Source of the DNA: a virus
Reading direction: 5' to 3' (one strand)
Length of the DNA: 64,000 nt
IMG/VR virus record: IMGVR_UViG_3300042731_004843
Coordinates: 1-64,000 of that record
Part shown: positions 2,690 to 57,506 of the stretch, piece by piece
Position numbering within the stretch: position 1 is the first letter of the stretch
How the letters are laid out: every line of letters starts with the position of its first letter
The notes under the pieces: model-generated
What the model was told of the DNA's origin: nothing
What the model saw: only the letters and a program-made list of their open reading frames with translations
The model's database searches: none
Translations under genes and position numbers: made by a program

Positions 2690-2923
2690 ATGGATCAACG
2701 CCTAATTGGGCTCTTCAGCGAGCTGGAAAAGATCGGGGTTAACAAGGGCCTATCCCATTTCACGCAGAGTCGTGGTGGGCGCCGACCTATCAGAGTCGAC
2801 AAGCTGCTGGAGAAGGAGAAGGCGTTTCTCCCCAAAGCACAAGACGACGATGCCTCCGAGGATGGGAAGGACCATGAGATGGAGGGAGGTCTCGGCATGG
2901 GTGAAGGCGCCACGGAGGGCTGA
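2690..2923 (+). CDS. small protein with N-terminal ELEKI tag
   Basis: ATG 2690, LFSELEKIG near the N-terminus; abuts the next ATG at 2925. Confidence 0.65.
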   Translation: MDQRLIGLFSELEKIGVNKGLSHFTQSRGGRRPIRVDKLLEKEKAFLPKAQDDDASEDGKDHEMEGGLGMGEGATEG

Positions 2924-2924
2924 C

Positions 2925-3449
2925 ATGTACGGCTCATTTTTCGATGAACTGGTCAAGTTGGCCAAGGACGAGACTGGCGAGAAGATCATGCGTGGTGCGG
3001 TGGCTGCCAGACCGTGGGCCCAGAGGTTTGTTACAGCCGGGATACCTGCAGCTGTGGCGGCCAACTTTTTTCTGCCTATGAAGGACAGTCCTTTGAAGCG
3101 TAAGCTGATAGCCGGCTCCGGACTTCTAGGCGGTGGGGCCGGTGTGGGGGAGTTGGCCGTACGTAGATGGGCGGAGAAGAACCCTCGTAAGGGTTTGGCT
3201 AAAGAGATCAAGAAGATGGGCGCGGCACAGGCGTTCCTGAAGGTGGCCGCCATGGCCGCAGATCTACGCAAAGCCGGTATCGGTGGGGTAGAGAGGCCGC
3301 CGCTGATTACGGAGGACAGCAAGGAGCACGCGTACAACAGGCTGCGGCAGTCGGCTAAGCCTGGCGAGTTCCTGTCCGCCACAAAGCCCCGCCATCTCAA
3401 GGCCCCAGGGCCGTCGATCAAACAGATCTCCGCCCTCCCAACGGGGTAG
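2925..3449 (+). CDS. basic, Gly/Ala-rich protein with FFDELVKLA tag (putative internal head/ejection protein)
   Basis: ATG 2925 follows the TGA of the previous gene with GGAGGG upstream; glycine-zipper-like segment GSGLLGGGAGVG. Confidence 0.6.
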   Translation: MYGSFFDELVKLAKDETGEKIMRGAVAARPWAQRFVTAGIPAAVAANFFLPMKDSPLKRKLIAGSGLLGGGAGVGELAVRRWAEKNPRKGLAKEIKKMGAAQAFLKVAAMAADLRKAGIGGVERPPLITEDSKEHAYNRLRQSAKPGEFLSATKPRHLKAPGPSIKQISALPTG

Positions 3450-3452
3450 ATA

Positions 3453-4223
3453 GTGGACGCCGTCAGTGACTTCCTGGAAGCGCTTGGCCAGGTCAAGGAG
3501 GCCGCGGTCAAAGACTTGCGTAAGCGGCAGGCGCAAGAGATGCAGATGTGGGAGCGGTGGAAGCAGGGTGGGGAGAAGCCACAAGACTTGCGTCCGCTCA
3601 TACACTCGTTCAAGCCTCTAGTAAGTCACCAGGCCAACATCTGGGCTGGTAAGGTGCGTGACGTACCTCCAGCGGCTATCCGGGCGGAATTCACCAACCA
3701 GTTCGTTTCCGCTCTTCAGACTTATGATCCACAGCGCGGAGCAGGACTCGGTACGCACATACGGCACCAGCTGAAGAAAGCGCAACGGTTCGTCACAACG
3801 TATCAGAATCCTGGCAGGATCCCAGAGAATCGGGTCTACCGCATACGGGAGCTGCAAGACGCAGAGATGCAGCTGGATGAGCGCTTTGGTAGAGAGCCTA
3901 CACAGCTCGAGATAGCTGACCACCTGAAGTGGTCCCCGAAACAGGTGGACGTGCTCCAGAGGGAGGTCCGCAAAGCACGACCAACGGGTCAGTTCGAGAC
4001 GGACCCATCTACGTTCACCCCGTCCAGGCAGAAAGAGGTTCTGCGCCTGCTGCCCTACGAGCTAACATCTGACGAGAAGCAGGTGTTCGAGTACATCTAC
4101 GGCGTGGGCGGGAAACCAAAACTCGGGCCCGGTCAGATAGCCCGGAAGCTGAAGATGAGCGCCCCTAAGATCTCCAGACTTAAGCGCTCCATAGCTGAAA
4201 AGTACGCGAGGCATTCAAGCTGA
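3453..4223 (+). CDS. sigma-70 family RNA polymerase sigma factor (group 3, FliA/SigF-like architecture)
   Basis: Region 2 YDPQRGAGLGTH (cf. FDPxRGxxFxTY), region 3 GREPTQLEIADHL, region 4 LTSDEKQVF...IARKLKMSAPKISRL. Confidence 0.85.
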   Translation: MDAVSDFLEALGQVKEAAVKDLRKRQAQEMQMWERWKQGGEKPQDLRPLIHSFKPLVSHQANIWAGKVRDVPPAAIRAEFTNQFVSALQTYDPQRGAGLGTHIRHQLKKAQRFVTTYQNPGRIPENRVYRIRELQDAEMQLDERFGREPTQLEIADHLKWSPKQVDVLQREVRKARPTGQFETDPSTFTPSRQKEVLRLLPYELTSDEKQVFEYIYGVGGKPKLGPGQIARKLKMSAPKISRLKRSIAEKYARHSS

Positions 4224-4462
4224 TGGCCGATCCAAAACTACCTGTAGATCAGCGACAACAGGACAGGGACGCCCGCCTGGATGAGCTGAAAACGGCCACT
4301 ACCGATTGGGCCGATAAGGAAGAGAAGCGCCTCACAGACGAGGCCACTTTCTTGAGGTCGGTACTTAAGGGCCGGACAGGTGCGGGGAGACTAGCAGACC
4401 AAAACGTGGCTGACTCTTCCAAACTGGTGGTCGATGAGATCTCCAGGTTCTTGGAAGGATAG
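4223..4462 (+). CDS. hypothetical protein
   Basis: TGATG overlap with the sigma gene. Confidence 0.6.
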   Translation: MADPKLPVDQRQQDRDARLDELKTATTDWADKEEKRLTDEATFLRSVLKGRTGAGRLADQNVADSSKLVVDEISRFLEG

Positions 4463-4471
4463 GAGGACAAA

Positions 4472-5104
4472 ATGGAGAACGAAGAGAGAGTAATCGAGTT
4501 GACGCCAGATCACCGCAGCGAGCTTGTGCAGGCCAAAATCATCAAGCCGGATCAGGCCAGCATGCCCCAGAAGGAGTATGCTGCAGCCCTCGAGGCGCTA
4601 CGTCAGATGAAGTTGGCTGACGCGAAAGATAGCGTGGAGAGGCTCAGTACTGGCCTGCAGAACGCGCAGGGGGTGATAGACGGTATCCGCGCTAAACAAC
4701 GCAAGGTACACCGGCCCCCCAACACCCCGGATATGCCCATCGGAGATCCGGATGAGATGGCCGCGGAAGAGTGGAAGAAGTACGAGCAGCCGCTCACGGA
4801 GGCAAGTAAGCGCATTCAGCAGGCAAAGGCGGCGGCTGGAAAGGTAGAACAGGCGTCCAGGTTAGTACAACTCGACCCGACTATGGTGCTCAGGATCGAG
4901 CTCACCGCGGCTAAGAAGCGAGCAGCTGTGGCAGAAGAGAGCCTCGCTATCCTAGCGCTGCAAGAGGCTAGGAAAGCAAAAGACGCGGCGGAAAGAGAAG
5001 AGGCGCTACTGATGCGGGCAGTGTCTGCCCAGCTGGGCGTTACTCCGGGCAAGAACGTTCGCCTGGTGGACAAGGAAAAGGGCATTTGCCAGATCGAGGG
5101 CTAG
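4472..5104 (+). CDS. hypothetical coiled-coil protein
   Basis: AGGAGG RBS; helical composition. Confidence 0.7.
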   Translation: MENEERVIELTPDHRSELVQAKIIKPDQASMPQKEYAAALEALRQMKLADAKDSVERLSTGLQNAQGVIDGIRAKQRKVHRPPNTPDMPIGDPDEMAAEEWKKYEQPLTEASKRIQQAKAAAGKVEQASRLVQLDPTMVLRIELTAAKKRAAVAEESLAILALQEARKAKDAAEREEALLMRAVSAQLGVTPGKNVRLVDKEKGICQIEG

Positions 5105-5509
5105 ATGGCTGTCGTCGTCCGAAAACGAGCTGGCGCAGCAGTACTAGGCTGGGGCGCCGGCCTGTTGGGGACGTCCGATACCGTACGGTACCTATATCCT
5201 GGGTACAGTGATCAGCTAGCTGAAGTTCGGGAGACAAGCCTGCAGGCACCCAGATCCGGCGTTCTCAGGAATCTACAAGTGCGTCATAATGTCCCTGACG
5301 GTAATGGCGCGTCGATTGTCTACACTGCGCGTGTGAATGGCGTAGATACGGCATTGGCCGCGGCCGTGCCTTCCACGGCCGGGTCTGGGAACGATTTGAC
5401 GAACTCCGTAGCTGTCGATATTGGGGATCTGGTGAGTATCAGGGTGAGTAAGGTAGCCGGGGTCGGGAAGTCGCCAAAGAATGTCGTCGTGACTGCAGAG
5501 CTCATATAG
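5105..5509 (+). CDS. structural beta-sandwich protein, paralogous to the C-terminus of 5519-6574
   Basis: RSGVLRNLQVRHNVPDGNGASIVYT matches RAGILRNMYVRHNITGGNGNAIVYT. Confidence 0.65.
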   Translation: MAVVVRKRAGAAVLGWGAGLLGTSDTVRYLYPGYSDQLAEVRETSLQAPRSGVLRNLQVRHNVPDGNGASIVYTARVNGVDTALAAAVPSTAGSGNDLTNSVAVDIGDLVSIRVSKVAGVGKSPKNVVVTAELI

Positions 5510-5518
5510 GAGAAGTAA

Positions 5519-6574
5519 ATGGCCCTCGCGAACTACAGATTCAGGAAAACTGACGCGTCAGCTGCACTGGACGACATCAATGATAGGTTAGCCGGGAGTG
5601 CTGTCCTCGTCGATCAGGCAGGTGGACAAGTCGTCACGGTTCAGTACGATGATTCTGCTACGAACGAGGCGGACCTCATCGATGTGATGGCGCAGAAGGG
5701 GTACGCCCTCATCGAGGGGTCCGGTGGTGCTGGAGTTACTGGAACTGCTTACGATGATCACGAGCAGCGCCAGGACCAAATGAAGGCGCCGGTTCGGGTG
5801 GTCGAGTCATCGGACCTGGTTACTGCCGGATGGGTCTCGAGCGGTGGAGGCAAGAACAAGACCCTGACCAGTCCGAGCGATTCAGTTTCGTTCAATGATT
5901 TCGACAGTATCACGTTCACGGCGGGCGTTGGCCAGCGTGTGTTGCTGACCGGGCTCACGCCCGCCTCGCATAACGGTATCTACTTCCTCGAGACTGCGGC
6001 AGATGGCGCAGGCCAAAACGCTGTTTTGAAGCGTGCCTACGATGCTGATGAGGACGAAGAGGTCCTTTCCGGCATGAGTGCGTTGGTCGTAGAGGGCAGT
6101 CAAGAGAAGAAGATCTACGCCCTAAAAACGACCGGCACCATCACGGTCGACACTACCTCCCTGACGTTCGAGGCCATCCGCGCAGATGTTGATGCTGCGG
6201 AGAACCTGCTATTCGGGGCTGGGAAGCTCGTCACTTCTACTACTACCAACTACCTGTTCCCTTGTTACTCGGACAGCCTGGCCCAGACCACCGCAATACA
6301 GTTCCGCGCATCCCGTGCCGGTATTCTTCGCAACATGTACGTGCGCCACAACATCACTGGCGGCAACGGTAACGCGATCGTCTACACACTGCGTAAGAAC
6401 GGCATTGCAACAGCACTGACAGTGTCCCTGGCGTCAACAGCAAATGACGGGTCCGACTTGGTTAACTCAGTTAGCGTGGCCAAGGGCGATCTGATCGATG
6501 TTGAGGTCACCAAAGCAGCGGGCATCGGAGGAACTCCAAGAGACATCACCGTCTCGATGGAATTCGCTGCCTAG
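5519..6574 (+). CDS. virion fibre/decoration protein
   Basis: Central GQRVLLTG..ASHNGIY...KRAYDAD...SGM..LV.EG motif is typical of phage fibre proteins; AGGAG RBS. Confidence 0.6.
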   Translation: MALANYRFRKTDASAALDDINDRLAGSAVLVDQAGGQVVTVQYDDSATNEADLIDVMAQKGYALIEGSGGAGVTGTAYDDHEQRQDQMKAPVRVVESSDLVTAGWVSSGGGKNKTLTSPSDSVSFNDFDSITFTAGVGQRVLLTGLTPASHNGIYFLETAADGAGQNAVLKRAYDADEDEEVLSGMSALVVEGSQEKKIYALKTTGTITVDTTSLTFEAIRADVDAAENLLFGAGKLVTSTTTNYLFPCYSDSLAQTTAIQFRASRAGILRNMYVRHNITGGNGNAIVYTLRKNGIATALTVSLASTANDGSDLVNSVSVAKGDLIDVEVTKAAGIGGTPRDITVSMEFAA

Positions 6575-6576
6575 CA

Positions 6577-8144: not shown

Positions 8145-8145
8145 G

Positions 8146-8973
8146 ATGAAGACCGCTTTAGTTGTTTCTGGAGGCGGTTCCCGCGGTGCGTTTGCTGTTG
8201 GGGTGCTAGAAGTTCTACGGGAGAGGGGTTGGGAGTTCGACATCATCAGCGGGACCAGTACTGGTGCTTTGATCGCGTCTCTGGCTTCCATTGGAGACAT
8301 AGACGAGCTGGTGCGGATTTACACCTCGGTTCGAACAAAAGACATTCTGCGCCTCAACTGGCGGCGTTTGTTCAAGGACGCCATTTACGACACGAAGCCG
8401 CTAGAGAAGCTGATTCGAAAGACCATGAAGGGGGACCGTTACGAGAGGTTGATGGCGGCCCAAACCACCACGCTTTTCTGCCGCATAGCCTTGCGGTCGG
8501 GGAACATACTGTATGGGTCCCAGAGGGCTATCTCAGGGCATGAAGACGTCGTTCCTTGGGGAGACTTCAATGGGTACGTCAAGGCGCTGCTCTCCTCGAC
8601 TAATGAGCCCTTGTTCATGCCACCTATCGAAATTGACGGGCAGACTTGTTTGGATGGCGGGGTCAGGGAAGTGGTTCCCTTCAGGATCGTGAAGTCTCTT
8701 GGTGCCCACAAAGTGGTAGTCATAGCGAATGGCCCCGTGGACCCGGCGCCTACAGACAAATCGTATTCTTGCGTACTGGACACGGGGTTCAGGGCGATTG
8801 ATCTGATGACTACGGAAATAACCAACGACGATCTGGTTGGTGTTGGCAACAACGTGACTGTGATCCGCCCCACAGCCCCTCTTCCTGGTAGCTCGTTGGA
8901 GTTCATCCCGGAGGAGATGCAGGAGCTGCGAACCATTGGCCAGAATCGAGCAAGGGAAGTCCTATCCTTGTAG
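8146..8973 (+). CDS. patatin-like phospholipase
   Basis: Oxyanion hole GGGSRG, nucleophile GTSTG, catalytic DGG. Confidence 0.92.
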   Translation: MKTALVVSGGGSRGAFAVGVLEVLRERGWEFDIISGTSTGALIASLASIGDIDELVRIYTSVRTKDILRLNWRRLFKDAIYDTKPLEKLIRKTMKGDRYERLMAAQTTTLFCRIALRSGNILYGSQRAISGHEDVVPWGDFNGYVKALLSSTNEPLFMPPIEIDGQTCLDGGVREVVPFRIVKSLGAHKVVVIANGPVDPAPTDKSYSCVLDTGFRAIDLMTTEITNDDLVGVGNNVTVIRPTAPLPGSSLEFIPEEMQELRTIGQNRAREVLSL

Positions 8974-8982
8974 GGGGCGGCC

Positions 8983-9291: not shown

Positions 9292-9333
9292 TAGAATGGT
9301 GGTTGGTACCCCCTATGCTTTCATTGAGGCACC

Positions 9334-9576: not shown

Positions 9577-9578
9577 CC

Positions 9579-9971: not shown

Positions 9972-9986
9972 TAAGATCGCTGGGAC

Positions 9987-10816: not shown

Positions 10817-11764
10817 ATGGCGGTCATCAAAGTCAAGATCTTCGTGCCGGAAATAGACAACGTCATATCCCTGTTCGACGTGATTCAGGTCCAACGTTCG
10901 GAAGCGGGATCCCCGTATACGGACGCTAAGGACATTACCGCCGACACGGCCCAAAAACCAGTGCTGGTGGGCGCAGAGGAAGGGCCATTCGCGTCTCTGC
11001 AGGGGAAGACACTGAGGCTGAAAGTGGATGGGGGACTCGAGCAGGAAGTCACGTTCACGGCAGCAGATCCCATCAGCCTCAGCAATGTCATCGCTGAGTT
11101 CAACACGGAGATCTCCGGGGCGACCGCGGACGATGACGGCACGGGTAAGCTGCAGATAGAGGGCAACGCCCCAGGTACAGTAGGCACCCTGGAGATGACG
11201 GGCGGCACCGCACTGGCCATACTGGGCTTCGTCACGGGAGACAAGGATAACGGGGAAGACAGTCACCCCACTCTGCTCCCAGGGGTGGATTCTTACGAGT
11301 ACGATGATCAAAGCGGGCAGGCGTCGTACTGGTACAGGACCAGGTACTACAACACTGGCGACGGTACGGTAAGCTCGTACTCGGACTGGGTACAGGGCTC
11401 GACTGGTGCGGTCATCGATCCTGCCGAGCTTATCGTGGGTAAGATCAAATTGGCCGGGGTGGACGGCACGGCAATGGTGGGGGCCAAGATCTCCATCGTG
11501 AACACCTACAGTCCGTTGGTTGCTGATGAGCACTTCATAGCCGGACGTAACCTGCAGATAGAGACGGATGGGTCCGGTTATGCAGAGACGACACTAATCA
11601 GAAATTCCATTGTGGACGTGGTCATCGAGGGCACGTCCTTCATCCGCCGAATCCAGGTCCCCGCCACCGGTACGGAGTTCGATCTGATGGACGAGAGCCT
11701 GGTACTGGATGATCCGTTCCAGATCCAGGTACCGGACTTGCCGGCGGCAGTGAGGAGAAGCTGA
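10817..11764 (+). CDS. structural protein (C-terminus paralogous to 13023-13985)
   Basis: IETDGSGYAETTLIRN matches LRTDKDGYAELDLYRN. Confidence 0.6.
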   Translation: MAVIKVKIFVPEIDNVISLFDVIQVQRSEAGSPYTDAKDITADTAQKPVLVGAEEGPFASLQGKTLRLKVDGGLEQEVTFTAADPISLSNVIAEFNTEISGATADDDGTGKLQIEGNAPGTVGTLEMTGGTALAILGFVTGDKDNGEDSHPTLLPGVDSYEYDDQSGQASYWYRTRYYNTGDGTVSSYSDWVQGSTGAVIDPAELIVGKIKLAGVDGTAMVGAKISIVNTYSPLVADEHFIAGRNLQIETDGSGYAETTLIRNSIVDVVIEGTSFIRRIQVPATGTEFDLMDESLVLDDPFQIQVPDLPAAVRRS

Positions 11765-12291
11765 TGCCAGGACGTAAGAGCTATGGGCCGGGTGGAAAGT
11801 GGATCCATGATCGCGCCCACGGGTTGATGGATGAGCGCAAGAAGGGGAGCCTGACCGAGCGGTATGGGGACAAGAAGGGCAAGTCGATCGCCTACGCTAT
11901 CGCTACTCAACAGGCCCACAAGGTCGGTAAGAGCCCGAAAGGCTTCCGCACTACAGAGGGCGTCCGCGAGGCTAAGCAGAAGTTCGATAAGCCGAAGAAG
12001 GAGTACCAGAAGACGGCGGCTCGCACAGGACGCTTACTTAGGATGACGGATTCCATCGTCAGAAAAGGTGGAGATAAAGCTCCAGGCAAGCTGATAGATG
12101 CCGCCAAGAGACTCGGTAAAGCGGTTGAGCAGTCTAACGTCCGGCGTGGACTGGATACTGCGGAACAAGCAACCAAACACATGACCGATAAGCAGAGAAA
12201 CAATATCTTCATGAAGGCTATAGAGAATATGGGCAAGACCGGCAGCATTTCTTTGTCCTCCTTCTTTGATGAGCTGCAGCAGATCCAATGA
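11764..12291 (+). CDS. highly basic protein with C-terminal FFDELQQI tag
   Basis: K/R-rich; KSIAYAIATQQAHK segment; TGATG overlap. Confidence 0.6.
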   Translation: MPGRKSYGPGGKWIHDRAHGLMDERKKGSLTERYGDKKGKSIAYAIATQQAHKVGKSPKGFRTTEGVREAKQKFDKPKKEYQKTAARTGRLLRMTDSIVRKGGDKAPGKLIDAAKRLGKAVEQSNVRRGLDTAEQATKHMTDKQRNNIFMKAIENMGKTGSISLSSFFDELQQIQ

Positions 12292-12785
12292 GGCGAACCT
12301 TGACCACGACCATCAAAAGCTCGCTACCGGCATTCTTCGGTGAGCTCGAGAAGATTGGGCAAGCTCCGGGGTCATTAGCTCATCGGGCACAATTGGGCGC
12401 TCCGGGGGCCTGGGGCAGTCTGGGGTCGTCTGGTGGGGCCTCCTCTGGTGGGGCCTCCTCCGGTGGTGTTTCCCCGCCAACTGGGCCAGGAAGTAGCGGC
12501 GGAGCAGGGGCGAGCATGCCTAAGCCGCCGACGGCCGGAGAGATGGGGGGCGGGATGAGTGCTGCAGATCTGGGTCTTTCCGGCTCTAACCCCCCGCCTA
12601 TCCAGGCGCCCACCCAACCGCAGCAGCCCATGTCAGCTACCGGTACGCCGCCCCCAGGTGCACCGGCTACTGCGCCCGGGTCTTTGGCCAGTCCACAAAG
12701 GAAGAAGGGCTTCGGTACTGGTACACTATCGTCTGCTGAGAGCGCTGAGGTAGCCCCACCATCAGCATCTGAGTTTGGAGGCTAG
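12288..12785 (+). CDS. low-complexity G/S/P protein with FFGELEKIG tag
   Basis: ATGA overlap; disordered composition. Confidence 0.55.
   Translation: MRRTLTTTIKSSLPAFFGELEKIGQAPGSLAHRAQLGAPGAWGSLGSSGGASSGGASSGGVSPPTGPGSSGGAGASMPKPPTAGEMGGGMSAADLGLSGSNPPPIQAPTQPQQPMSATGTPPPGAPATAPGSLASPQRKKGFGTGTLSSAESAEVAPPSASEFGG
12429..12458 (+). repeat. 15-bp tandem repeat TCTGGTGGGGCCTCC x2 (SGGAS)
   Basis: Direct reading. Confidence 0.7.
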
Positions 12786-12787: not shown

Positions 12788-13006
12788 ATGCTGCCCATGG
12801 TCAGCTTCTTCGAGGAGATGGAGAAGATAGCCCTCGTGGGCCCGCTTATCGGGCAGGCCGTCAAGTACCCAGGCATGGTAGGCTGGCGACTGCATCAGAT
12901 CGAAGAAGGTAAAGGCGCACACAGGCGCATGATGCAGAACATAGAGCGGGGCGTTCCCGCCGGTTGGGCGGCCCTGGGGATGCGTCCGAGAGATACCAGG
13001 CGATAG
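12788..13006 (+). CDS. small protein with FFEEMEKIA tag
   Basis: GGAGG RBS upstream. Confidence 0.6.
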   Translation: MLPMVSFFEEMEKIALVGPLIGQAVKYPGMVGWRLHQIEEGKGAHRRMMQNIERGVPAGWAALGMRPRDTRR

Positions 13007-32821: not shown

Positions 32822-33094
32822 ATGCATGAGGCTAGTATGCAGGCGCTTCAAAGTGAGCTGGAGAAAATAGCCAAGACGAAGGGGAGCAGGCGCCTTGCGG
32901 AAGCTATGTTTGGTAGGCTTCGTGCAGCGAGGGGAGGCGGCGTTAAGGGCAGCGAAGTGGGCGCGTTCAGGAAGTTGCGTAGGGCGAACTACGGACCATC
33001 GGAAGCGGCGGGAGCTATCGATAAGGCTAGATGGCGCGGCGATCAGTACGTGAAGGTGCCTGAAGGTTACGGCCATCGCTACATAGATTTTTAG
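32822..33094 (+). CDS. small basic protein with LQSELEKIA tag
   Basis: GGGAG RBS. Confidence 0.6.
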   Translation: MHEASMQALQSELEKIAKTKGSRRLAEAMFGRLRAARGGGVKGSEVGAFRKLRRANYGPSEAAGAIDKARWRGDQYVKVPEGYGHRYIDF

Positions 33095-33436: not shown

Positions 33437-36400
33437 ATGCGACTCAAGACCGCATTCGAGTGGGCGGCGACAGGACCCAACAGGGGTGAGCGCGTACACG
33501 ATGCTCCCGTACTGTGGCGGCCCGGCAAACTGAAGCGGTCGGATTTCCAACCTGCCGCAGGGATCAATCCCGATGTAGCCAGGGGTGTTGCTCGAGAGCC
33601 GCAAGAGAAGGTCTCCATATTCGATGGGGACGGTACCAAGCTGATGCCCCACCTACGCGCCATCCACAAGCTGGGCGGCATCTCTGCCAGTGAAGTGGGG
33701 ATTGAAGACCTGGACGGCTTCAAGACCACCGGCAGGCACTACGCCAGACAGGCGCAAAGGGCCTTTAGCGACAAGCCCGTAGATGCTGGTCCTGGCTACG
33801 GGGCAGACCACGAGAGCAATAGCACGGCCGGAGAAGGCAACGAGCCCGATACTTCAGGGGAAATTCCTATCGAGGATCCGCAGGACAGCACACCTCTGCG
33901 CGGACATCTACGTAATATCAGGGGGTTAAAGAAGCAGGGGGCTGGTGTGCTGTCTGGGGAGCTGCTGGCTGGGCTGCCCAGGATAGATGTCATCGCTGCC
34001 GAGCAACAGCGCCAGCTGCTATCCAGGGCCGTCCACGAGGCCCGTAGCCGCGGCGGGGAGCTCAGAGGGGCCCAGGAGCCCTCAGCTCTACCTCTGGCCG
34101 GTGAGGGGGCTCTAGAGGGCGCTCAGTATGTCAGGCTGTCAGAGGCCGATGTAGACGCCATCAATGCCCGCCTAGCCCGCCAGGCTATGGAGAAGAGTTC
34201 GAGTTGGGATCCGCGGCTCAAATCCGTCTCTGTGACTGGCTGCGTCAAACTGGCAGAGCCGGCGCCCCGTTTGCGCACAAAGCTATTGCCCCACCAAGAG
34301 CGGGTAGTTGAGAAGCTAAAGGGGCGGCCGGGACTGGTAGTGGCTCATGGGTTGGGATCGGGCAAGACGCTGAGTTCCATAGCCGCTGCTGTACAGCTGG
34401 AGCCGGACAGGACCAAGGTACTGGTTCCGGCGTCTCTCAGGGCCAACTACCAGAAGGAGCTGGACAAGCACGTAGAAGGTACCCTGCCCATAGAGGTGGG
34501 CTCTCTACAGGGTGCGGCCGCACGCGGGGAGGTGCCGCGTGCAGACCTACTGGTGGTAGATGAGGCGCACAGAGGCAGGAACCCGCAGTCCAAAACGTAC
34601 CAGATGATCCAAGGCGCCGAGGCCAAGAAGCGCCTGATGTTGACTGCGTCACCTACCTACAACCGGCCGTCTGACGTAGCCACTCTGGTAAACATGGCTG
34701 CTGGCGATAGGGTCATGCCCATGGGTAAGGCCTTTGATGAGCGGTACATCGCGCAGCCCAAGAAGGGTATCTGGGGCCTGCTCCCGTTCTCTAGAAAGCA
34801 GGAGGGCTTGAAGCGCAAGGGAGAGCTCGGCAAGGCTTTGTCGGAGTGGGTGGACTACCACAAGTCTGGGGGCAAGGGGTTTCCAGATGTGATGGAGGAG
34901 CGCCACGCGGTCAAGATGACCAAGCGCCAGACGCAGCTTCACGATGCTGCGTGGGGACAGCTCTCTTTGTTGTCCAAGATGCGTCTGCGCCGCGGGCTGC
35001 CTCCCGACAAGCAGGACCTCTCCAAGATCAACAACTTCCAGTCTCAGACCCGGCAGATCTCCAGTACTGAGTCGCCGTACACTAAGAAGGGGCGGGGCGA
35101 GGTATCTCCTAAGATCGTGAAGGCTGTAGGGCTCCTGGACACAGAAGCCAGGGCGAACCCTGATCACAAGGCGCTGGTCTACTCTAACTACTTGGGCACC
35201 TTGAGAGACTACTCTAAGGAGCTGGAGAAGCGGAAGGTGCCCCACGCCATATTCTCCGGCCAGCAAAAGATGCGGGACCGCAAGCAGATGGTGGAGGACT
35301 ACAACGCCGGCAAACTGAAAGCCCTGCTGGTATCGTCTGCTGGAGGGGAGGGGCTGGACCTGAAGGGCACCAGGCAGGTCCAGGTACTCGAGCCGCACTG
35401 GAACGTAGAGAAGCTGAAGCAGGTGGAGGGCCGGGCCATCCGCCGCGGTTCCCACACGCACCTGCCGAAAGACCAGCAGAAGGTACTGCTGCAGAGGTTC
35501 GAGTCCTATCCACGTGGAGGCATCTTCAGAAAGCGCCGCGGTGTAGAGCAGGTGCTGGGCGACATGGCTGCCAATAAGGAGAGGCTGAACCAGGAGATGC
35601 TGGGGCTGATGGAAAAGAGCGCAGAGCCACCACCCCCAGAAGGCGTCTCCGCCAAAGAGTGGGACGAGATACTGGACAACAAGGCCAGTAAGCCGCGTCC
35701 CCTGCCCGAGGTCATAACCAAGGACCGGCTTCGTGATCCTGTTGTCCAGCCACGCGACCTTATCCGGCGGCAGGAAACCCGGATGGAAAAGAGCGCGAAG
35801 CGCAAGTCCTGTTTTGATGAGTCCGTGAGAATAGCCGTAAAGAACCCACAGCTTACGCTAATGAAGGGGGATCCTTTCAAGGGCTCTGGAGACAGGGCCC
35901 ACTTCTGGTTGGAAGACAAGGACGGAAAGATCACCGACCCTACTGCGGGACAGTACCCGAAAAGTACGAGAGTCTATACGGGTGGACGACCAGTCAGCTT
36001 GAGTAGGAATCGTGATGCAGTAGAAAGAGCTCTGCAGAAAAGAGCATTCAAGCTGCAGGGACAGACCGAAGTGCAAGGCATTCCTGTAGCCATCGAGAAC
36101 CGCAAGGGGTCTGTACGGAAGGGCAAAGATCCGGACGGCAACGAGTGGCGTACCAAGATGCAGAACCCGTACGGGTACATCAAGGGCACCAAGGGAGCAG
36201 ATGGGGAAGAGGTAGATGCCTACGTGGGCCCGGACAAGGAAGCCCCCAAAGCGTTCGTCGTACACCAGCGAGACAAAGAGACCGGTGAGTATGACGAGGA
36301 CAAGGTCATGCTGGCCTTCAAGTCCAAGGCCGACGCCAAGAGAGCCTTTCTTGCACACTACGACAGCCCCAAGTTCCTCGGACCCATCAGTGCGGTACCC

Positions 36401-37093
36401 ATGGAGCGTCTGCGGGAGCTAGTAGAGAGCAAGAAGAGGCTGGTCAAGATCTCTTTCGCCGTGCCGGTTGTAGAGGACAAAGGTTACCAGAAGAAGGTAC
36501 GCCGGAGATTCGATAAACTGACCAAAGCGCTGGCACGTCACGGGGACCCAGTGGGCACAGGGCACAAGAGGATCGTCATCCCCAAGCGTGTTATGAAAGA
36601 GGATGACCTTGTTGGGCAGCTGGGGTTCGTTCCAGTCAAGGTGGCCATCCCGGAGGCCGGGCAGTCCCGCTTTGCCAGTTTTAGGCACCCGGACAATCTA
36701 TTCCACCTGCACGAGCACGGTGATGCGTGGGTCATGCACAAAGATGAGCACCCTGCGTCCACCATGCTGGTGAAGAAGTGGCGTATGGCCAGAGAGGCCG
36801 CTAAGAGCGCCACGGGCAAGAGTCAAGCTGAAGTGAAGGCGGCTCTCAAGGCTACGGGCGGGAAGCTCAAGCCGGTCGGGGATTTCATCAGAGGCCTGCC
36901 GCACGTGGTCACGGAGGGTGTTCCTGGAGCGTACTACTACGCCAAGGGGCAGATCTTAAAGACCAAGGGTATGCGGGAGAGGGTAGAAGAAGCTGTACCC
37001 AACGCGTACAAGCGCCAGGTGACGAAGTGGATAGAGCTAAAAAAGGCCGCAAGTGCCGGCTACGCCGATCTCGGTAGCCTAGTTCAGGAGTGA
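33437..37093 (+). CDS. polyvalent multidomain protein: SWI2/SNF2-like helicase + small Cys-His-Asp domain + phage inorganic-pyrophosphatase-like (InPase) domain
   Basis: HGLGSGKT, DEAH, TASP, GGEGLDL, QVEGRAIR; SCF...AHFWL...DPT; IENRKGSVRKG...YGYIKGTKGADGEEVDAYVGP...DEDKVML. Confidence 0.85.
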   Translation: MRLKTAFEWAATGPNRGERVHDAPVLWRPGKLKRSDFQPAAGINPDVARGVAREPQEKVSIFDGDGTKLMPHLRAIHKLGGISASEVGIEDLDGFKTTGRHYARQAQRAFSDKPVDAGPGYGADHESNSTAGEGNEPDTSGEIPIEDPQDSTPLRGHLRNIRGLKKQGAGVLSGELLAGLPRIDVIAAEQQRQLLSRAVHEARSRGGELRGAQEPSALPLAGEGALEGAQYVRLSEADVDAINARLARQAMEKSSSWDPRLKSVSVTGCVKLAEPAPRLRTKLLPHQERVVEKLKGRPGLVVAHGLGSGKTLSSIAAAVQLEPDRTKVLVPASLRANYQKELDKHVEGTLPIEVGSLQGAAARGEVPRADLLVVDEAHRGRNPQSKTYQMIQGAEAKKRLMLTASPTYNRPSDVATLVNMAAGDRVMPMGKAFDERYIAQPKKGIWGLLPFSRKQEGLKRKGELGKALSEWVDYHKSGGKGFPDVMEERHAVKMTKRQTQLHDAAWGQLSLLSKMRLRRGLPPDKQDLSKINNFQSQTRQISSTESPYTKKGRGEVSPKIVKAVGLLDTEARANPDHKALVYSNYLGTLRDYSKELEKRKVPHAIFSGQQKMRDRKQMVEDYNAGKLKALLVSSAGGEGLDLKGTRQVQVLEPHWNVEKLKQVEGRAIRRGSHTHLPKDQQKVLLQRFESYPRGGIFRKRRGVEQVLGDMAANKERLNQEMLGLMEKSAEPPPPEGVSAKEWDEILDNKASKPRPLPEVITKDRLRDPVVQPRDLIRRQETRMEKSAKRKSCFDESVRIAVKNPQLTLMKGDPFKGSGDRAHFWLEDKDGKITDPTAGQYPKSTRVYTGGRPVSLSRNRDAVERALQKRAFKLQGQTEVQGIPVAIENRKGSVRKGKDPDGNEWRTKMQNPYGYIKGTKGADGEEVDAYVGPDKEAPKAFVVHQRDKETGEYDEDKVMLAFKSKADAKRAFLAHYDSPKFLGPISAVPMERLRELVESKKRLVKISFAVPVVEDKGYQKKVRRRFDKLTKALARHGDPVGTGHKRIVIPKRVMKEDDLVGQLGFVPVKVAIPEAGQSRFASFRHPDNLFHLHEHGDAWVMHKDEHPASTMLVKKWRMAREAAKSATGKSQAEVKAALKATGGKLKPVGDFIRGLPHVVTEGVPGAYYYAKGQILKTKGMRERVEEAVPNAYKRQVTKWIELKKAASAGYADLGSLVQE

Positions 37094-53655: not shown

Positions 53656-53720
53656 GCATCCTCCAGAACGGCTAACTGCTTGTAATCCTTGTGGTGACGT
53701 TGCGGGGGCGGCCATGAACA

Positions 53721-53746
53721 GTACCTTACCAGATCTGGTAAGGTAC
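53721..53746. repeat. perfect 26-bp palindrome
   Basis: GTACCTTACCAGA|TCTGGTAAGGTAC. Confidence 0.85.
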
Positions 53747-53771
53747 ATTTATACATACATCGTCCGCCCTG

Positions 53772-54143: not shown

Positions 54144-54181
54144 GTTATCTCCTGGGGTTAGTTGGGGTCCAAGACGAAGAT

Positions 54182-54190
54182 CTTATAACA
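54182..54190 (-). promoter_or_regulatory. extended -10-like element TGTTATAAG driving the replication block
   Basis: Located in the divergent intergenic region; the same TATAAG occurs at 60756-60761. Confidence 0.4.
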
Positions 54191-54221
54191 GCGTGTAGGC
54201 GTTTTTTGTCCTGCCCACTTG

Positions 54222-54250
54222 TTGACCCCACCGGAGCCGAGACGTAGTAT
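54222..54250 (+). promoter_or_regulatory. sigma70-like promoter TTGACC-N17-TAGTAT
   Basis: Upstream of ATG 54277. Confidence 0.55.
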
Positions 54251-54276
54251 CATCGGGAGATCACGGAGAGACTGAC

Positions 54277-55641
54277 ATGCATACTGGATCTATCGTCGAC
54301 TTCTACGATGACCCTCAGGGACTAGTTCTGAAGAATCGTCTGCCGCAAGAAGGCGTACCGGACTTCATCAAGCAGGCAGAGTTTCTAGATGAGCATACCC
54401 GCGGCACCTTACCGGACGATGTATTTGCCCTGGTCATGGTCGACCGTGGCGAGAAGCTGCGCAAGTTCGCCTGTGTAGACAAGGGTAATGTGGCCCTCAA
54501 CGTGATCTACTTCATGGAGAACCGGGACCGCCTACCAGAAGAGGCCCAGAAGACTGCTGCGGCTAACCTGGCTAGGGCCTGTTCTTGGTTCGACCTGGCA
54601 GTACCTATGGGACTGGACAAGGAGGCGGGATTTTCTAGCCTGTTGAAGGCCCCTAGCAAGCTGGTGGGCGGGGGTATGGCTGCCGCAGATATAGGCGGCA
54701 GGGTCTCTGCAGGCAAAGAACGCCACCGACAGATGACGCGCACGGCCGACATGATCGGCTCCAACGTCATGCCCACCTCCGGTAGCAAGGAAAAGGCAGC
54801 AGCTCCTTCTACCCGTTCGGCTCTACGGGAACTGGACAAACAGAGAGCCGCAGATCCGGATCTACAGCGTAAGCTGAAGCGTACTAGAGCAGACATGAGG
54901 GCCAACCCGAGTAAGTACACCCTAAAGTCGGCCGCACTCCAGCCATATGTGGACGTCACGGGGCAGAGGCCGCCGGAGAGGATCAAGCAGGCTAGCGCGG
55001 AACGGCACTGCTTGATTAAAGAAGGTCAGGCACACTTTCCGATCGACAGCTATGGCCAGATCAAGCAAGCGTCGGTTTGGTTTGACGAGTACGGGCACAC
55101 ACTGCACCCAGCAGAGCGCCGGGAGTACTGCACCAAGCTAGCATCCAGGGCGGACGAAGTCGGCATCGAGGTCAGTGATCTCATTCGAAAATACGGGTCA
55201 CCGGGCTATGCCACGGATGGAGAAGTGAACGTCGCGGTCTGTACCAGGATGCAGCATTGGGCAGACGATGCGCCTGAGCGTGACATGCTGAAGGGGTTGA
55301 TGGAGAAAGCTGCTTCAGTCTCCCCGGATGTTTTCTGTGAAGCTCTCCGGCAGTTCGATGAAGCCACGGGCATGGACCATCTGTGGGACGATGAGATCTA
55401 CGACCCCTGGTTTTCCACGTACGGCTTCAAGAAAGAGGCCGCGTGGTCCTGGCAGAGCGGAAACGACAGAGTAACGGAAGCGCAACTAAAGCTGTCGGCT
55501 AAGAAAGACTTCTTGGCTATCCGTGAAGCGTTCGGGTTGGAGGTGGCGGAGGAGTACAGGAAGAACCCCCAGCAGGTATTTGACTCCATGCCATTGGATT
55601 CTAAGCGCATTCTTACGCGCATGGCCAACGACCCCCTGTAG
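54277..55641 (+). CDS. putative head/scaffold-associated protein with two LPDxxFA..RK(F/Y)P-like modules
   Basis: LPDDVFALV...RKFACVD and HFPIDSYGQIKQA modules; upstream of the portal; many K-x-A sites. Confidence 0.5.
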   Translation: MHTGSIVDFYDDPQGLVLKNRLPQEGVPDFIKQAEFLDEHTRGTLPDDVFALVMVDRGEKLRKFACVDKGNVALNVIYFMENRDRLPEEAQKTAAANLARACSWFDLAVPMGLDKEAGFSSLLKAPSKLVGGGMAAADIGGRVSAGKERHRQMTRTADMIGSNVMPTSGSKEKAAAPSTRSALRELDKQRAADPDLQRKLKRTRADMRANPSKYTLKSAALQPYVDVTGQRPPERIKQASAERHCLIKEGQAHFPIDSYGQIKQASVWFDEYGHTLHPAERREYCTKLASRADEVGIEVSDLIRKYGSPGYATDGEVNVAVCTRMQHWADDAPERDMLKGLMEKAASVSPDVFCEALRQFDEATGMDHLWDDEIYDPWFSTYGFKKEAAWSWQSGNDRVTEAQLKLSAKKDFLAIREAFGLEVAEEYRKNPQQVFDSMPLDSKRILTRMANDPL

Positions 55642-55644
55642 GAT

Positions 55645-56535
55645 ATGGCTACCCACGAAGAGCAGCTGCTGGGCCTCCTGGAGAAGATAGGCCAGCCGGA
55701 AGAGACCACTGCCGAGGTCCCGTCTGTACTGGACGGGACCTCCAATGACGATCACGTCGAGACGTACGGCTCTTCCGAGGACCCCAACACGGAGGCTGAG
55801 CACGAAGAGCTGGCGGCAGCCAATACTGACCGGCAAGGGATGCCGGAAGGTGCGCTGTCCCCAGTCACGAAGCGGAACATGTGGGTGCATCACGACACCC
55901 ACCCGGTAACATATGATGTGGCCCTCCTGGGCACGTACGGCACAGACTGGTTTGAGTGGGAGCCCGGTACCCTCTGGCGTGAGATCAGAGAGGACTTCCG
56001 GGTACCCTCTATCAATGACCACGCCAAGGCCAAGATACAGGCGGCGAAGACGCTGCACATCAATGAATGGTACTGGACGAAGTGGGAAGTGTTCTGCTGG
56101 ATCACGCAGGCCTTGAACAACAATATCCCGGACTTCCATGTACTCCAGAAGCCTTCCATAGCGCAGCTGATGCAGTCTGTAGACGCCGCTACGATGGTAC
56201 GCAATGACGTGGAGTTCACCCCAGAGCTCCAGATGTTCGTGGCGGCTGCGATGGTAGAGTCCGGTGTATTCTATGCCCCGAAGCCCATAGACTTTTGCCA
56301 GGACGAGATCGAGACGCTGCTTGACGAGCTTCAGATAGATAAGAGCTTGATCGGGCAAGTACAGAGCAGGTGGCGAGAGGTGAAGCAGATCTCTCCAGAG
56401 GCGTGGGCGCGTTCTCCAGAACCCGTACTGCGGGAAGACGTGGTAGACATCCAGGTAGCCAAATTGAAAGTAGCGTGCGATTATCTGGATCTACGTCGTC
56501 GCCAACTGCAGGAGCAACTGAGGCTGCTCAAATGA
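55645..56535 (+). CDS. hypothetical protein with LLGLLEKIG tag
   Basis: 296-aa ORF in the head block. Confidence 0.65.
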   Translation: MATHEEQLLGLLEKIGQPEETTAEVPSVLDGTSNDDHVETYGSSEDPNTEAEHEELAAANTDRQGMPEGALSPVTKRNMWVHHDTHPVTYDVALLGTYGTDWFEWEPGTLWREIREDFRVPSINDHAKAKIQAAKTLHINEWYWTKWEVFCWITQALNNNIPDFHVLQKPSIAQLMQSVDAATMVRNDVEFTPELQMFVAAAMVESGVFYAPKPIDFCQDEIETLLDELQIDKSLIGQVQSRWREVKQISPEAWARSPEPVLREDVVDIQVAKLKVACDYLDLRRRQLQEQLRLLK

Positions 56536-57506
56536 AGCACATCACGGCTCCCCACATGCATGGTTTCGTAAATGGGTTGACGAAGGAAGCCATCAACATG
56601 CGCAGCTTTATGGATCTCTACCGCAGAGCCGCCGGAAAGACTATTCCGGGGCACATTGGGAGGGCCACCAGCGCTATCAAGGACACGGCCAAGAAGCATC
56701 TGTCTGGTAGATACGGACGGCAGGTTGCCCTGGGCGCAGGCCTCGGTGCTGCAGGCGGTGCCGCTACTGGTGACGACGAGAACTGGAAAACTAGGGCGCT
56801 ACAGGGCGCGCTGATCGGTGGTACTGCTGCTGGCGGCCGTATTTTGGGCACAAAGGTTGGTAGGCAGGCTGCATCGGAAGCCACCAAGAGGTTCGGTGAG
56901 CGCCAGCTATACACCTTGACCGGCAAGGGATTCAAAGGCCGGGAGGTTGGCCTTGAGGACGCCAAAAGATTGGGGATCCTCAAGGTTCCGGAGTGGGAGA
57001 AGCTAAAGGATACTCCGGGCGCTGTTAGCCGGGCCGTCTCCAAGGTCACCGGGAAGCCGGCAAAGACGCAGCTGGGCCGGGAAGCTGGGCGCTATGCTGC
57101 CGATGTAGAGGCTTTCCAGAAGGGCTTTCAGAACATCCCTGGTGTGGTGCACGGCGCTCTGACCCGACCTGGGGAACTCCTACGTAGTGGTTGGCAGAGG
57201 GCAGGTACAGCTGGGAAAGTCTTCGCTGGAGCCGGCGCTCTCGAGGCAGCACGCGCAGCGACCAAGAAACCGGAGGCCGGGGATCCGGGTAGGGCTCAAG
57301 CTGCTCTTGGCAGCTTGGGGCGCACGGCCGGTTACTTGGTGGCCCCCGGGGCTATGCTGGGGCAGGTAGCGGTGGGTGGCCTGGCTGGTAAGGGCGGAGA
57401 GGCCGTGGGGAAGATAGGTGATGTGGCGTCTAAGGCCAGGAAGGCCGCGATCCAAGTCCCGTACCAGCAGTATGCTGACCTAGCCCCGTACTACGGTGGG
57501 AGGTAG
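56532..57506 (+). CDS. basic glycine-zipper protein (putative ejected/internal virion protein)
   Basis: ATGA overlap gives the start at 56532; LGAGLGAAGGAA and GALIGGTAAGG segments; FVNGLTKEA. Confidence 0.55.
   Translation: MKHITAPHMHGFVNGLTKEAINMRSFMDLYRRAAGKTIPGHIGRATSAIKDTAKKHLSGRYGRQVALGAGLGAAGGAATGDDENWKTRALQGALIGGTAAGGRILGTKVGRQAASEATKRFGERQLYTLTGKGFKGREVGLEDAKRLGILKVPEWEKLKDTPGAVSRAVSKVTGKPAKTQLGREAGRYAADVEAFQKGFQNIPGVVHGALTRPGELLRSGWQRAGTAGKVFAGAGALEAARAATKKPEAGDPGRAQAALGSLGRTAGYLVAPGAMLGQVAVGGLAGKGGEAVGKIGDVASKARKAAIQVPYQQYADLAPYYGGR

What the first reader, a model, noticed from the sequence alone, without database searches (positions are those of the whole stretch)
2690..57506. 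Shared 'FFxELEKI[A/G]' terminal tag on otherwise unrelated late proteins: candidate capsid cargo-targeting/maturation code
Seen: near-identical amphipathic motifs sit at protein termini across the + strand blocks: LFSELEKIG (2711), FFDELVKLA (2937), FFDELQQIQ (12262, C-terminal), FFGELEKIG (12333), FFEEMEKIA (12806), LQSELEKIA (32846), LLGLLEKIG (~55666) and FVNGLTKEA (~56564). The rest of each protein is unrelated and mostly basic, disordered or glycine-zipper. I did not see the tag in the replication-block enzymes. Known: T4 internal proteins carry an N-terminal capsid-targeting sequence removed by gp21, and phiKZ gp175 cleaves head cargo after Glu. Inference: this is an analogous but Lys-based (K-x-A/G) addressing and cleavage signal marking proteins for packaging and injection.
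Basis: partly seen in the sequence, partly recalled or inferred. Interest (0 to 1): 0.82.

Follow-up and report, generated by a model that had tools for sequence, protein, structure and literature searches.

The report
Shared protease-cut leader on phage head proteins
Many unrelated late proteins of this uncultured large phage start with the same short acidic helix ending in Lys-x-Ala/Gly; this is most likely the cutting site of the phage's own head-maturation protease and doubles as a tag that loads cargo into the capsid, as in phage T4 but with a different code, though no cutting or packaging has been measured.

Summary
All eight strings are at the stated coordinates. Seven sit 4-16 residues from a start codon. 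The eighth, C-terminal one is a decayed copy left where a gene split at the motif.

A scoring matrix trained only on relatives outside the window finds eight hits of at least 19.8 bits in the 108-kb genome, all N-terminal on small late proteins (0.065 expected). In 2 Mb of related contigs, all 116 strong hits lie on the late-gene strand.

A relaxed core, hydrophobic-x-K-x-[A/G], occurs 47 times against 12 expected in head-module proteins (z 10.6). The reversed motif and K-to-R or K-to-E variants are not enriched. The core flanks the catalytic domain of a T4 gp21/herpes-assemblin-like protease. It precedes the HK97 fold of the capsid protein in 96 of 100 distant relatives, and it marks domain boundaries and fusion/fission points.

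The same enrichment (z 14.9) occurs in head proteins of the cultured Salmonella phage Arash.

Best reading: a prohead-protease site (P3 Lys, P1 Ala/Gly), plus an N-terminal propeptide that may target cargo, including a sigma factor. Cleavage and packaging are inferred only.

This scan has reported analogous leader systems with other motifs on other DNA. Verdict: a new variant of a known kind.

The parts
2690..2923 (+). 77-aa protein with a strict leader (motif at 2711-2737); predicted mature part 61 aa
   Evidence: (22.2 bits, residue 8)
2925..3449 (+). 174-aa protein with a strict leader (motif at 2937-2963); basic, hydrophobic, Gly/Ala-rich body
   Evidence: (25.7 bits, residue 5)
3453..4223 (+). 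Sigma-70 family factor with a roughly 20-residue N-terminal extension holding a looser leader (acidic-F-L ... K-E-A-A)
   Evidence: Pfam Sigma70_r3/r4. Homologue of the Arash virion protein gp10, which lacks the extension. The leader is kept in the L165 orthologue.
11764..12291 (+). 175-aa basic protein ending in a decayed motif copy (12262-12288; the Lys and the small P1 residue are lost)
   Evidence: (15.8 bits). It is the N-terminal half of a single gene in L165.
12288..12785 (+). 165-aa Gly/Ser/Ala/Pro-rich protein with the motif at 12333-12359; its start overlaps the upstream stop (ATGA)
   Evidence: (23.1 bits). It is the C-terminal half of the L165 fused gene.
12788..13006 (+). 72-aa basic protein with a strict leader (12806-12832)
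   Evidence: 23.0 bits. Orthologues in L165 and L166 keep the leader.
32822..33094 (+). 85-90-aa Arg/Gly-rich basic protein with a strict leader (32846-32872)
   Evidence: (19.8 bits)
54277..55641 (+). 454-aa head-module protein without an N-terminal leader but with an internal core site at about 54610-54627 (residues 112-117), followed by a variable linker
   Evidence: The site is kept in 36 of 39 orthologues at 30-70% identity. Some relatives have the full 9-residue motif there.
55645..56535 (+). 296-aa acidic protein just upstream of the portal gene, with a weak leader (55666-55692)
   Evidence: (leader kept in close orthologues; the Lys is lost in distant ones)
56532..57506 (+). 324-aa basic Gly/Ala-rich protein next to the portal gene, with a leader ending K-E-A (56565-56591)
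   Evidence: All 13 orthologues keep F/L-x-x-E-L-x-K-E/A-A, and the alignment breaks into gaps directly after it.
57509..59530 (+). Portal protein (context; it anchors the head module)
   Evidence: tblastn to the Arash portal gp204 and the phage G portal
33437..37093 (+). 1218-aa SNF2 helicase plus InPase-domain protein with core sites in the inter-domain linkers (residues about 251, 725, 783, 1201); candidate processed cargo
   Evidence: Not followed up in relatives.

Best explanation
The shared motif is the recognition and cleavage site of the phage's own prohead (head-maturation) serine protease. That protease is the 681-aa product of genome 76994-79039, just outside the window.

The core of the site is hydrophobic(P5)-x-Lys(P3)-x-Ala/Gly(P1), with the cut predicted after P1.

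On about eight small proteins, and in looser form on a dozen more including a sigma factor, the site ends a 12-24-residue acidic amphipathic N-terminal helix (aromatic-aromatic-acidic-Glu-Leu-Glu-Lys-Ile-Ala/Gly). This helix would act as a removable propeptide:
- it holds the mostly basic, Gly/Ala-rich cargo in a form that joins the scaffold/protease core of the prohead;
- it is then clipped off inside the prohead.

The same protease would trim the capsid protein's N-terminus, cut itself free on both sides of its catalytic domain, and chop the scaffold-like proteins.

Shown: motif specificity, distribution and conservation; the protease fold and family; the capsid fold.

Inferred: that cutting happens, where exactly it happens, and that the leader targets proteins into the capsid for later ejection.
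For: 1. Non-random and N-terminal:
-.
- 116 hits of at least 15 bits in 2.05 Mb of relatives, all on the late strand, most within 8-40 codons of the preceding stop.
- 25 sequence-distinct downstream families.

2. Selection acts on the protein: copies differ at synonymous codon positions, and the bodies are not paralogous.

3. Specific code: the forward core gives z 10.6 in head-module proteins, against reversed 0.2, K-to-R 1.2, K-to-E 1.8 and other P1 classes at most 1.5. Tail, baseplate, terminase and sheath-size proteins have 0-3 sites each.

4. Protease:
- The N-domain model's best structural matches among 48,161 chains are T4 gp21 (Z 7.6, rmsd 3.1, 134 aligned) and VZV protease (Z 6.7).
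- 10 of 24 orthologues hit phrog_18299 'head maturation protease'.
- It is a homologue of phage G gp19, which PMC12484599 calls a head maturation protease.
- The invariant Ser179 aligns with gp21 Ser140.
- Gene order is protease, scaffold-like genes, capsid gene.

5. Sites flank the protease domain in this clade, in Arash gp222 and in phage G gp19.

6. Capsid protein:
- K-x-[AGS] lies in the 22 residues before the first conserved helix in 96 of 100 distant representatives (background 15%), with P1 Ala in 88.
- In the AF2 model (pLDDT 89.9) the site lies in the only low-confidence linker (residues 20-27), between an N-terminal helix and the HK97 fold.

7. Fusion/fission at the motif: L165 against genes 11764 and 12288; L025/L027/L073 against L010/L011; L030/L035 against the family of the 89950 gene.

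8. A conserved internal site sits at a domain boundary of the 54277 family.

9. The same enrichment occurs in Arash head proteins gp218-226 (38 observed, 5.3 expected, z 14.9), but not in its other structural proteins (z -0.6).

10. N-terminal sites carry extra aromatic and acidic positions (P9-P6) that internal sites mostly lack. This fits a function beyond cutting.
Against: - No experimental data on neo-N-termini exist for any member of the lineage.
- The Arash virion proteomics (trypsin) lists 95-100% coverage for several motif-rich head proteins and 86.6% for the capsid protein. This implies that uncut forms were present. That sample also held many non-virion enzymes, so it may have been contaminated with precursors.
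- The protease assignment rests on moderate scores: Z under 8, Foldseek E about 0.1, hhalign probability under 1%.
- The capsid K-x-A could be a structural element of the N-arm rather than a cut site.
- The virion RNA polymerase homologue has no leader, so packaging does not require the tag.
- Phage G's capsid protein has R-V-A-L-A instead of the Lys motif.
Confidence: 0.6

Rival explanations
1. The motif is an uncleaved docking helix. It would be a short amphipathic peptide that binds the scaffold, portal or inner capsid surface (as encapsulin cargo-loading peptides or the P22 scaffold C-terminus do) and stays on the mature proteins. Its presence in the protease and scaffold would reflect shared docking, not cutting.
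For: - The hydrophobic positions fall on one face of a helix, and the P9-P6 positions are conserved only in N-terminal copies.
- High tryptic coverage of motif-rich Arash head proteins.
- The capsid protein has its own N-terminal helix upstream of the site.
Against: - The invariant features are a Lys and a small residue two positions later, which is typical of a protease subsite pattern.
- The relaxed core without the helix part is what is enriched, up to ten times per scaffold-like protein.
- It brackets the protease catalytic domain in three distant lineages.
- It sits at linkers and at fusion/fission points.
Confidence: 0.2
2. The small leader proteins are a fast-diverging paralogous family made by gene duplication. 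Only the N-terminus would be kept, for a function unrelated to the head, for example membrane insertion or a lysis-related activity of Gly-zipper peptides.
For: - Many bodies share basic, Gly/Ala-rich, partly hydrophobic composition.
- There are weak low-complexity matches between some pairs.
- One body has a Gly-zipper Pfam hint.
Against: - The same motif is on a sigma factor, the capsid protein, the protease and large head-module proteins, and occurs internally in the 54277 family.
- There are 25 distinct downstream families.
- Enrichment is specific to the head module in this genome and in Arash.
Confidence: 0.1
3. A composition artefact: Glu/Lys/Leu/Ala-rich helical or coiled-coil proteins produce such strings by chance.
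For: Scaffold-like proteins are helical and rich in E, K, L and A. The T4-type L/I-x-E pattern is also mildly enriched (z 3.0).
Against: - Within-protein shuffles, the reversed motif and K-to-R/E swaps show no enrichment.
- There is a strict positional bias to N-termini and strict strand bias.
- The sites are conserved in orthologues.
Confidence: 0.03

Closest known systems
Phage T4 capsid targeting sequence (CTS) of internal proteins IPI-III and Alt, removed by prohead protease gp21
   Same: - A short N-terminal amphipathic leader sits on otherwise unrelated, mostly basic head-internal proteins.
- The leader ends in the cleavage motif that the protease also uses on the capsid protein and the scaffold.
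- The protease has the same fold class.

The T4 function of propeptides in targeting to the prohead core is cited in PMC10052503.
   Different: - The code differs: P3 Lys and P1 Ala/Gly here, against L/I-x-Glu in T4.
- There is no detectable sequence relation.
- The lineage is different (relatives of Arash and phage G).
- The leader also occurs internally at fusion points.
- Nothing here has been measured.
phiKZ / 201phi2-1 / SPN3US giant-phage head propeptides cut by gp175/gp245 at (A/S/G)-x-Glu
   Same: Many head and ejection proteins carry N-terminal propeptides. The protease also cuts itself. Scaffold-like regions contain multiple sites (PMC10052503).
   Different: - That motif is not enriched here (z -1.4).
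- Most of those propeptides are long (111-254 residues), whereas these are 12-24.
- Those sites are mapped by mass spectrometry; these are only predicted.
Herpesvirus assemblin (capsid maturation protease)
   Same: Fold similarity of the protease domain (VZV protease Z 6.7; HCMV, HSV and KSHV proteases among the top Foldseek and VIA rows). From my own knowledge, assemblin cuts after Ala in (V/L/I)-x-Ala|Ser sites, and at sites on both sides of its own domain. A small P1 residue and self-release are also predicted here.
   Different: - A Lys at P3 is required here.
- This is a bacterial virus.
- The identity of the catalytic triad is not established beyond an aligned Ser and invariant His residues.
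Salmonella phage Arash and Bacillus phage G (cultured relatives)
   Same: - Homologous portal, capsid protein and protease.
- The Arash head module shows the same core-motif enrichment.
- Phage G gp19 has sites on both flanks of its protease domain.
- Arash virions contain RNA polymerase subunits and a sigma factor (PMC10585845).
   Different: - The strict 9-residue leader was not seen in the 71 kb of Arash examined.
- The Arash sigma factor lacks the extension.
- Neither phage's papers analyse proteolytic processing.

Membership tests
T4-type capsid-targeting/propeptide system (functional class) | A short N-terminal leader shared by otherwise unrelated head-associated proteins | tested here: met
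   Eight strict and about twelve looser leaders in the genome. There are 25 downstream families across relatives, and the bodies are unrelated.
T4-type capsid-targeting/propeptide system (functional class) | The leader ends in the same motif that occurs in the capsid protein, scaffold and protease | tested here: met
   The core motif is found in the capsid protein N-terminus, on both protease flanks and in scaffold-like proteins. This is sequence level only.
T4-type capsid-targeting/propeptide system (functional class) | The leader is cleaved off in proheads, and is necessary or sufficient for packaging | not testable with these tools
   This needs N-terminomics and reporter-fusion packaging assays. 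The published Arash proteomics does not address it.
T4 CTS proper (sequence family, L/I-x-Glu cut) | The leader ends in L/I-x-Glu, which gp21 cuts after Glu | tested here: not met
   Leaders end in K-x-A/G. The L/I-x-E pattern is only mildly enriched (z 3.0) and does not mark the leader ends.
gp21/assemblin-fold capsid maturation protease | Fold similarity of the catalytic domain | tested here: met
   The top two of 48,161 chains are T4 gp21 (Z 7.6, rmsd 3.1, 134 aligned) and VZV protease (Z 6.7, rmsd 3.6, 122 aligned). Foldseek's top rows are herpes proteases and gp21 at E 0.1-0.3. The strength is moderate.
gp21/assemblin-fold capsid maturation protease | Conserved Ser nucleophile and His residues | tested here: inconclusive
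   H122, H123, S179 and H221 are invariant in 24 orthologues. S179 aligns with gp21 S140, but at low hhalign probability.
gp21/assemblin-fold capsid maturation protease | A profile match to an annotated head maturation protease family | tested here: met
   phrog_18299 is hit by 10 of 24 orthologues, best E 1.2e-7. There is no Pfam hit.
phiKZ-type propeptide system | The (S/A/G)-x-Glu cleavage motif is enriched in head proteins | tested here: not met
   z -1.4 in head-module proteins.
HK97-fold major capsid protein with an N-terminal maturation cut | HK97 fold | tested here: met
   AF2 pLDDT 89.9. Z 15-17 to many HK97-fold capsid proteins, aligned from residue about 27-31 onward.
HK97-fold major capsid protein with an N-terminal maturation cut | The N-terminal segment is removed in mature capsids | not testable with these tools
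   The only evidence is a conserved K-x-A nine to ten residues before the first conserved helix, in a low-confidence linker.

The most novel reading that the evidence does not exclude
A lineage-wide maturation code is used by hundreds of uncultured 100-200-kb phages and by the cultured phages Arash and G. The code is P3 Lys and P1 Ala/Gly, read by a gp21/assemblin-fold protease.

In one subclade the code is coupled to a portable 9-residue acidic leader. The leader loads a changing set of cargo into the head: basic DNA-associated peptides, membrane-active Gly-zipper peptides and a sigma factor for the co-packaged RNA polymerase.

Cargo genes would evolve by fusing and splitting at these sites, so that polyproteins and separate genes are interchangeable.
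Probability: 0.4. Interest if true: 0.7.

Novelty: new variant of a known kind. Interest (0 to 1): 0.55.

Why it matters
If the prediction holds, it gives four things.

1. The cleavage specificity of a prohead protease family for which none is known: the Arash and phage G lineage, with several hundred capsid-protein clusters in metagenomes.
2. A simple rule for predicting which proteins of these barely annotated phages are head-internal and probably delivered into the host. These include a sigma factor that would act with the virion RNA polymerase.
3. A case where gene fusion and fission occur exactly at protease sites.
4. A short candidate tag for loading foreign proteins into capsids of a cultivable relative.

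It is directly testable, because a cultured relative with the same motif enrichment exists.

Tried and rejected
- **Pfam on the tagged proteins and the protease:** no family, except sigma-70 regions on gene 3453.
- **PHROGs on most head-module proteins:** nothing beyond terminase and capsid protein.
- **Foldseek of the protease model against PDB:** no match at E 0.001 or better. The fold call rests on VIA-align and the PHROG hits.
- **hhalign of the protease alignment against T4 gp21:** probability under 1%. It was used only for the local Ser alignment.
- **Profile search of the protease alignment against PDB sequences:** only spurious nanobody hits.
- **Full-text search for the motif strings:** no paper holds them.
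- **Arash and phage G papers:** no cleavage analysis. The phage G structure paper PMC7316594 is not held.
- **Leader on the 2052-aa RNA polymerase:** none found. Its N-terminus is conserved as part of the enzyme.
- **Related loci for window region 2.6-13 kb:** only two relatives were found with gene 10817. Genes 2690 and 32822 therefore have no orthologue check.
- **First gene caller:** my first greedy caller picked wrong-strand ORFs in this GC-rich DNA and was replaced by a codon-usage caller.

Full report
**What the window is.** The window is the first 64 kb of a single 108,145-bp phage-like contig.
- Plus-strand blocks hold virion genes:
  - a Baseplate_J-domain protein, a beta-helix fibre and an SNF2/InPase protein;
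  - the portal gene at 57509-59530;
  - a 2052-aa fused beta-beta' RNA polymerase from 60842;
  - beyond the window, the large terminase at 72243-74072 and the major capsid protein at 82377-83498.
- The minus-strand block at 38-54 kb holds PolA, a DnaB-type helicase, a primase and a RecA-like protein.
- The only cultured relatives found are Salmonella phage Arash, three Vibrio phages and, more distantly, Bacillus phage G.
- Uncultured relatives are numerous: 328 IMG/VR stretches encode a capsid-protein relative. In the 1.84-billion-protein library, 769 representative clusters match at E 0.001 or better.

**The observation.**
- Seven lie 4-16 residues from a start codon of a plus-strand gene. 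The eighth ends gene 11764-12291.
- The four-residue core E-K-[ILMV]-[AG] occurs 18 times in the genome against 5.4 expected.
- Eleven of these are in the first 25 residues, against 0.5 expected. The maximum in 2000 within-protein shuffles was 5.
- To avoid circularity I trained a 9-column scoring matrix only on N-terminal instances from related contigs L004-L083. These cover orthologues of genome 72-93 kb, outside the window.
- In the 108-kb genome the matrix gives eight hits of 19.8-25.7 bits. All start at residues 4-16 of plus-strand proteins of 59-174 aa, and five of them are in the window. The C-terminal copy scores 15.8 bits. Shuffled proteomes give 0.065 hits of at least 15 bits.
- In 2.05 Mb of 163 related loci scanned in six frames, all 116 hits of at least 15 bits lie on the late-gene strand. 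Most are 8-40 codons after the preceding in-frame stop. This shows N-terminal placement without relying on gene calls.
- The sequences downstream of the motif fall into 25 clusters with no detectable similarity to each other.
- The copies use different synonymous codons. The protein bodies are not detectably paralogous.
- Leaders are acidic, and most mature parts are basic and Gly/Ala-rich.

**The core code.** A relaxed core, hydrophobic-x-K-(P2)-[A/G], was counted in 27 head-module proteins.

| Pattern | Result in head-module proteins |
|---|---|
| Forward core | 47 observed, 12.2 expected, z 10.6 |
| Reversed motif | z 0.2 |
| K to R | z 1.2 |
| K to E | z 1.8 |
| K to Q | z 0.6 |
| Ser/Thr, acidic or aliphatic residue at the last position | z at most 1.5 |

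- The signal is therefore directional and needs Lys and a small final residue.
- Terminase, a sheath-sized protein and the giant baseplate and fibre proteins carry 0-3 such sites each.
- The same test on the cultured phage Arash gives 38 observed against 5.3 expected (z 14.9) in head proteins gp218-gp226. Sixteen other structural proteins give z -0.6, and the controls are again flat. Single scaffold-like proteins hold six to ten sites.

**The protease.**
- A first-stage note on an overlapping window (e1-6041001) pointed to the 681-aa product of 76994-79039.
- Its N-terminal 300 residues, aligned with 23 orthologues, have invariant His122, His123, Ser179 and His221.
- The AlphaFold model has a core pLDDT of 80-95 and a disordered first 54 residues.
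- Among 48,161 representative PDB chains, its best matches are T4 gp21 (Z 7.6, rmsd 3.1, 134 aligned) and varicella-zoster virus protease (Z 6.7). Foldseek's weak top rows are also herpesvirus proteases and gp21.
- Ten of the 24 orthologues hit phrog_18299, 'head maturation protease' (best E 1.2e-7).
- The phage G homologue gp19 is called a head maturation protease in PMC12484599.
- A low-probability hhalign alignment puts Ser179 on gp21 Ser140, next to a shared N-x-D-P element.
- The gene sits upstream of scaffold-like genes and the capsid gene.
- Core sites bracket the catalytic domain: two on the N-terminal side (ending at residues 31 and 55) and two on the C-terminal side (ending at about 285 and 322). 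The one at about 285 is nearly invariant. Arash gp222 and phage G gp19 have the same arrangement.
- Self-release at flanking sites is what T4 gp21, the SPN3US protease (PMC10052503) and, from my own knowledge, herpes assemblin do.

**The capsid protein.**
- Its model (pLDDT 89.9) has the HK97 fold, with Z 15-17 to many capsid proteins, aligned from residue about 27-31 onward.
- Residues 5-15 form a helix. Residues 20-27, which hold the core site, are the only internal low-confidence stretch.
- Among 100 distant representatives with a recognisable first conserved helix, 96 have K-x-[AGS] in the 22 residues before it (background 15%). Seventy-five have it at a fixed distance of 9-10 residues. 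P1 is Ala in 88.
- This fits a conserved maturation cut just before the N-arm. A purely structural role cannot be excluded.

**The motif is not only terminal.**
- In relative L165, one 294-aa protein matches gene 11764 over its first 75 residues (E 9e-33) and gene 12288 over its last 34 (E 2e-12). It carries a perfect motif in the middle.
- In the window the two halves are separate genes with an ATGA stop/start overlap. The upstream half retains a decayed motif at its very end.
- Two further fusion and stand-alone pairs exist among relatives.
- The 454-aa protein of 54277-55641 has an internal site that is kept in 36 of 39 orthologues at 30-70% identity. A variable, gapped linker follows it.
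- Cutting at such sites would make fused and split gene versions equivalent.

**Is there also an address function?**
- N-terminal sites carry extra conserved positions that internal candidate sites mostly lack: aromatic residues at P9/P8, and acidic residues at P7/P6 in about half. The hydrophobic residues fall on one face of a helix.
- A second, looser leader type (acidic-F/Y-L, then K-x-A within about ten residues) heads several larger proteins. One is the sigma-70 family factor of 3453-4223.
- That sigma factor is homologous to Arash gp10 from residue 29 onward (E 3e-27). Its first 20 or so residues are an add-on.
- Arash gp10, together with RNA polymerase subunits, was detected in virion preparations (PMC10585845).
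- These points fit a T4-like capsid-targeting role but do not prove one.
- The fused RNA polymerase next to the portal gene has no leader. Any packaging of it must use another route.

**Caveats.**
- No cleavage has been observed in this lineage.
- The Arash study used trypsin and reports 95-100% coverage for several motif-rich head proteins. Uncut molecules were therefore present.
- That preparation also contained ribonucleotide reductases and other non-virion enzymes, so precursor carry-over is plausible.
- Structural scores for the protease are moderate.
- Genes 2690 and 32822 have no orthologues among the loci fetched.

**Comparison and novelty.**
- Functionally this resembles the T4 capsid targeting sequence and gp21 system. 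It also resembles the phiKZ/SPN3US propeptides (PMC10052503).
- It is not a sequence member of either. The T4 L/I-x-Glu and phiKZ-type (S/A/G)-x-Glu rules do not describe these sites.
- The predicted small P1 residue resembles herpesvirus assemblin sites (my own knowledge). The P3 Lys requirement has no counterpart that I know of or could find.
- A strict back-translated pattern for the leader finds only 13 stretches in IMG/VR, all on contigs of 84-202 kb except two short fragments already fetched as relatives (L036, L068) and one 16-kb contig; several are already known relatives. The strict leader is thus confined to this clade, while the K-x-A core reaches Arash and phage G.
- Other agents of this scan have reported analogous leader-plus-cut-site systems with different motifs in other phages. 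First readers of overlapping windows of this genome noted the same motif.
- I class it as a new variant of a known kind, of moderate interest. It is directly testable because a cultured relative shows the same signal.

Noticed in passing
window 60842-64000 (the ORF runs to genome 67000): A 2052-aa single-chain RNA polymerase with Rpb2 domains followed by Rpb1 domains (a beta-beta' fusion). It is encoded directly after the portal gene. In Arash the homologues are two separate genes whose products are the most abundant proteins in virion preparations.
   Followed up: partly
window 3453-4223: A sigma-70 family factor (regions 3 and 4) is encoded in the late structural block. It carries a roughly 20-residue leader-like extension that is absent from its Arash homologue gp10, which was detected in virions. 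It is probably a packaged early-transcription factor.
   Followed up: partly
window 11764-12785: Gene fission with an ATGA stop/start overlap exactly at the motif. Relative L165 has the fused 294-aa version, and L166 has a shorter 183-aa version with a degenerate motif.
   Followed up: yes
window 33437-37093: A 1218-aa protein combining an SNF2-type helicase with an InPase domain, with PHROG hits to DarB-like antirestriction and minor head proteins. Core motif sites lie in the inter-domain linkers. It is a candidate processed, capsid-borne anti-defence protein.
   Followed up: partly
window 8146-8973: A patatin-like phospholipase (Pfam E 2.5e-28) is encoded among the structural genes.
   Followed up: no
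L084 (Arash 125000-174000), gp220, gp223, gp225: Arash head-module proteins hold six to ten copies each of the hydrophobic-x-K-x-A core. This is the pattern of a scaffold that is chopped into peptides. The small protein gp212 (51 aa) looks like the tagged Gly-zipper peptides of this genome.
   Followed up: partly
L165 11065-12009: A relative carries an extra 314-aa leader-bearing protein that has no counterpart in this genome. The cargo set therefore differs between close relatives.
   Followed up: no
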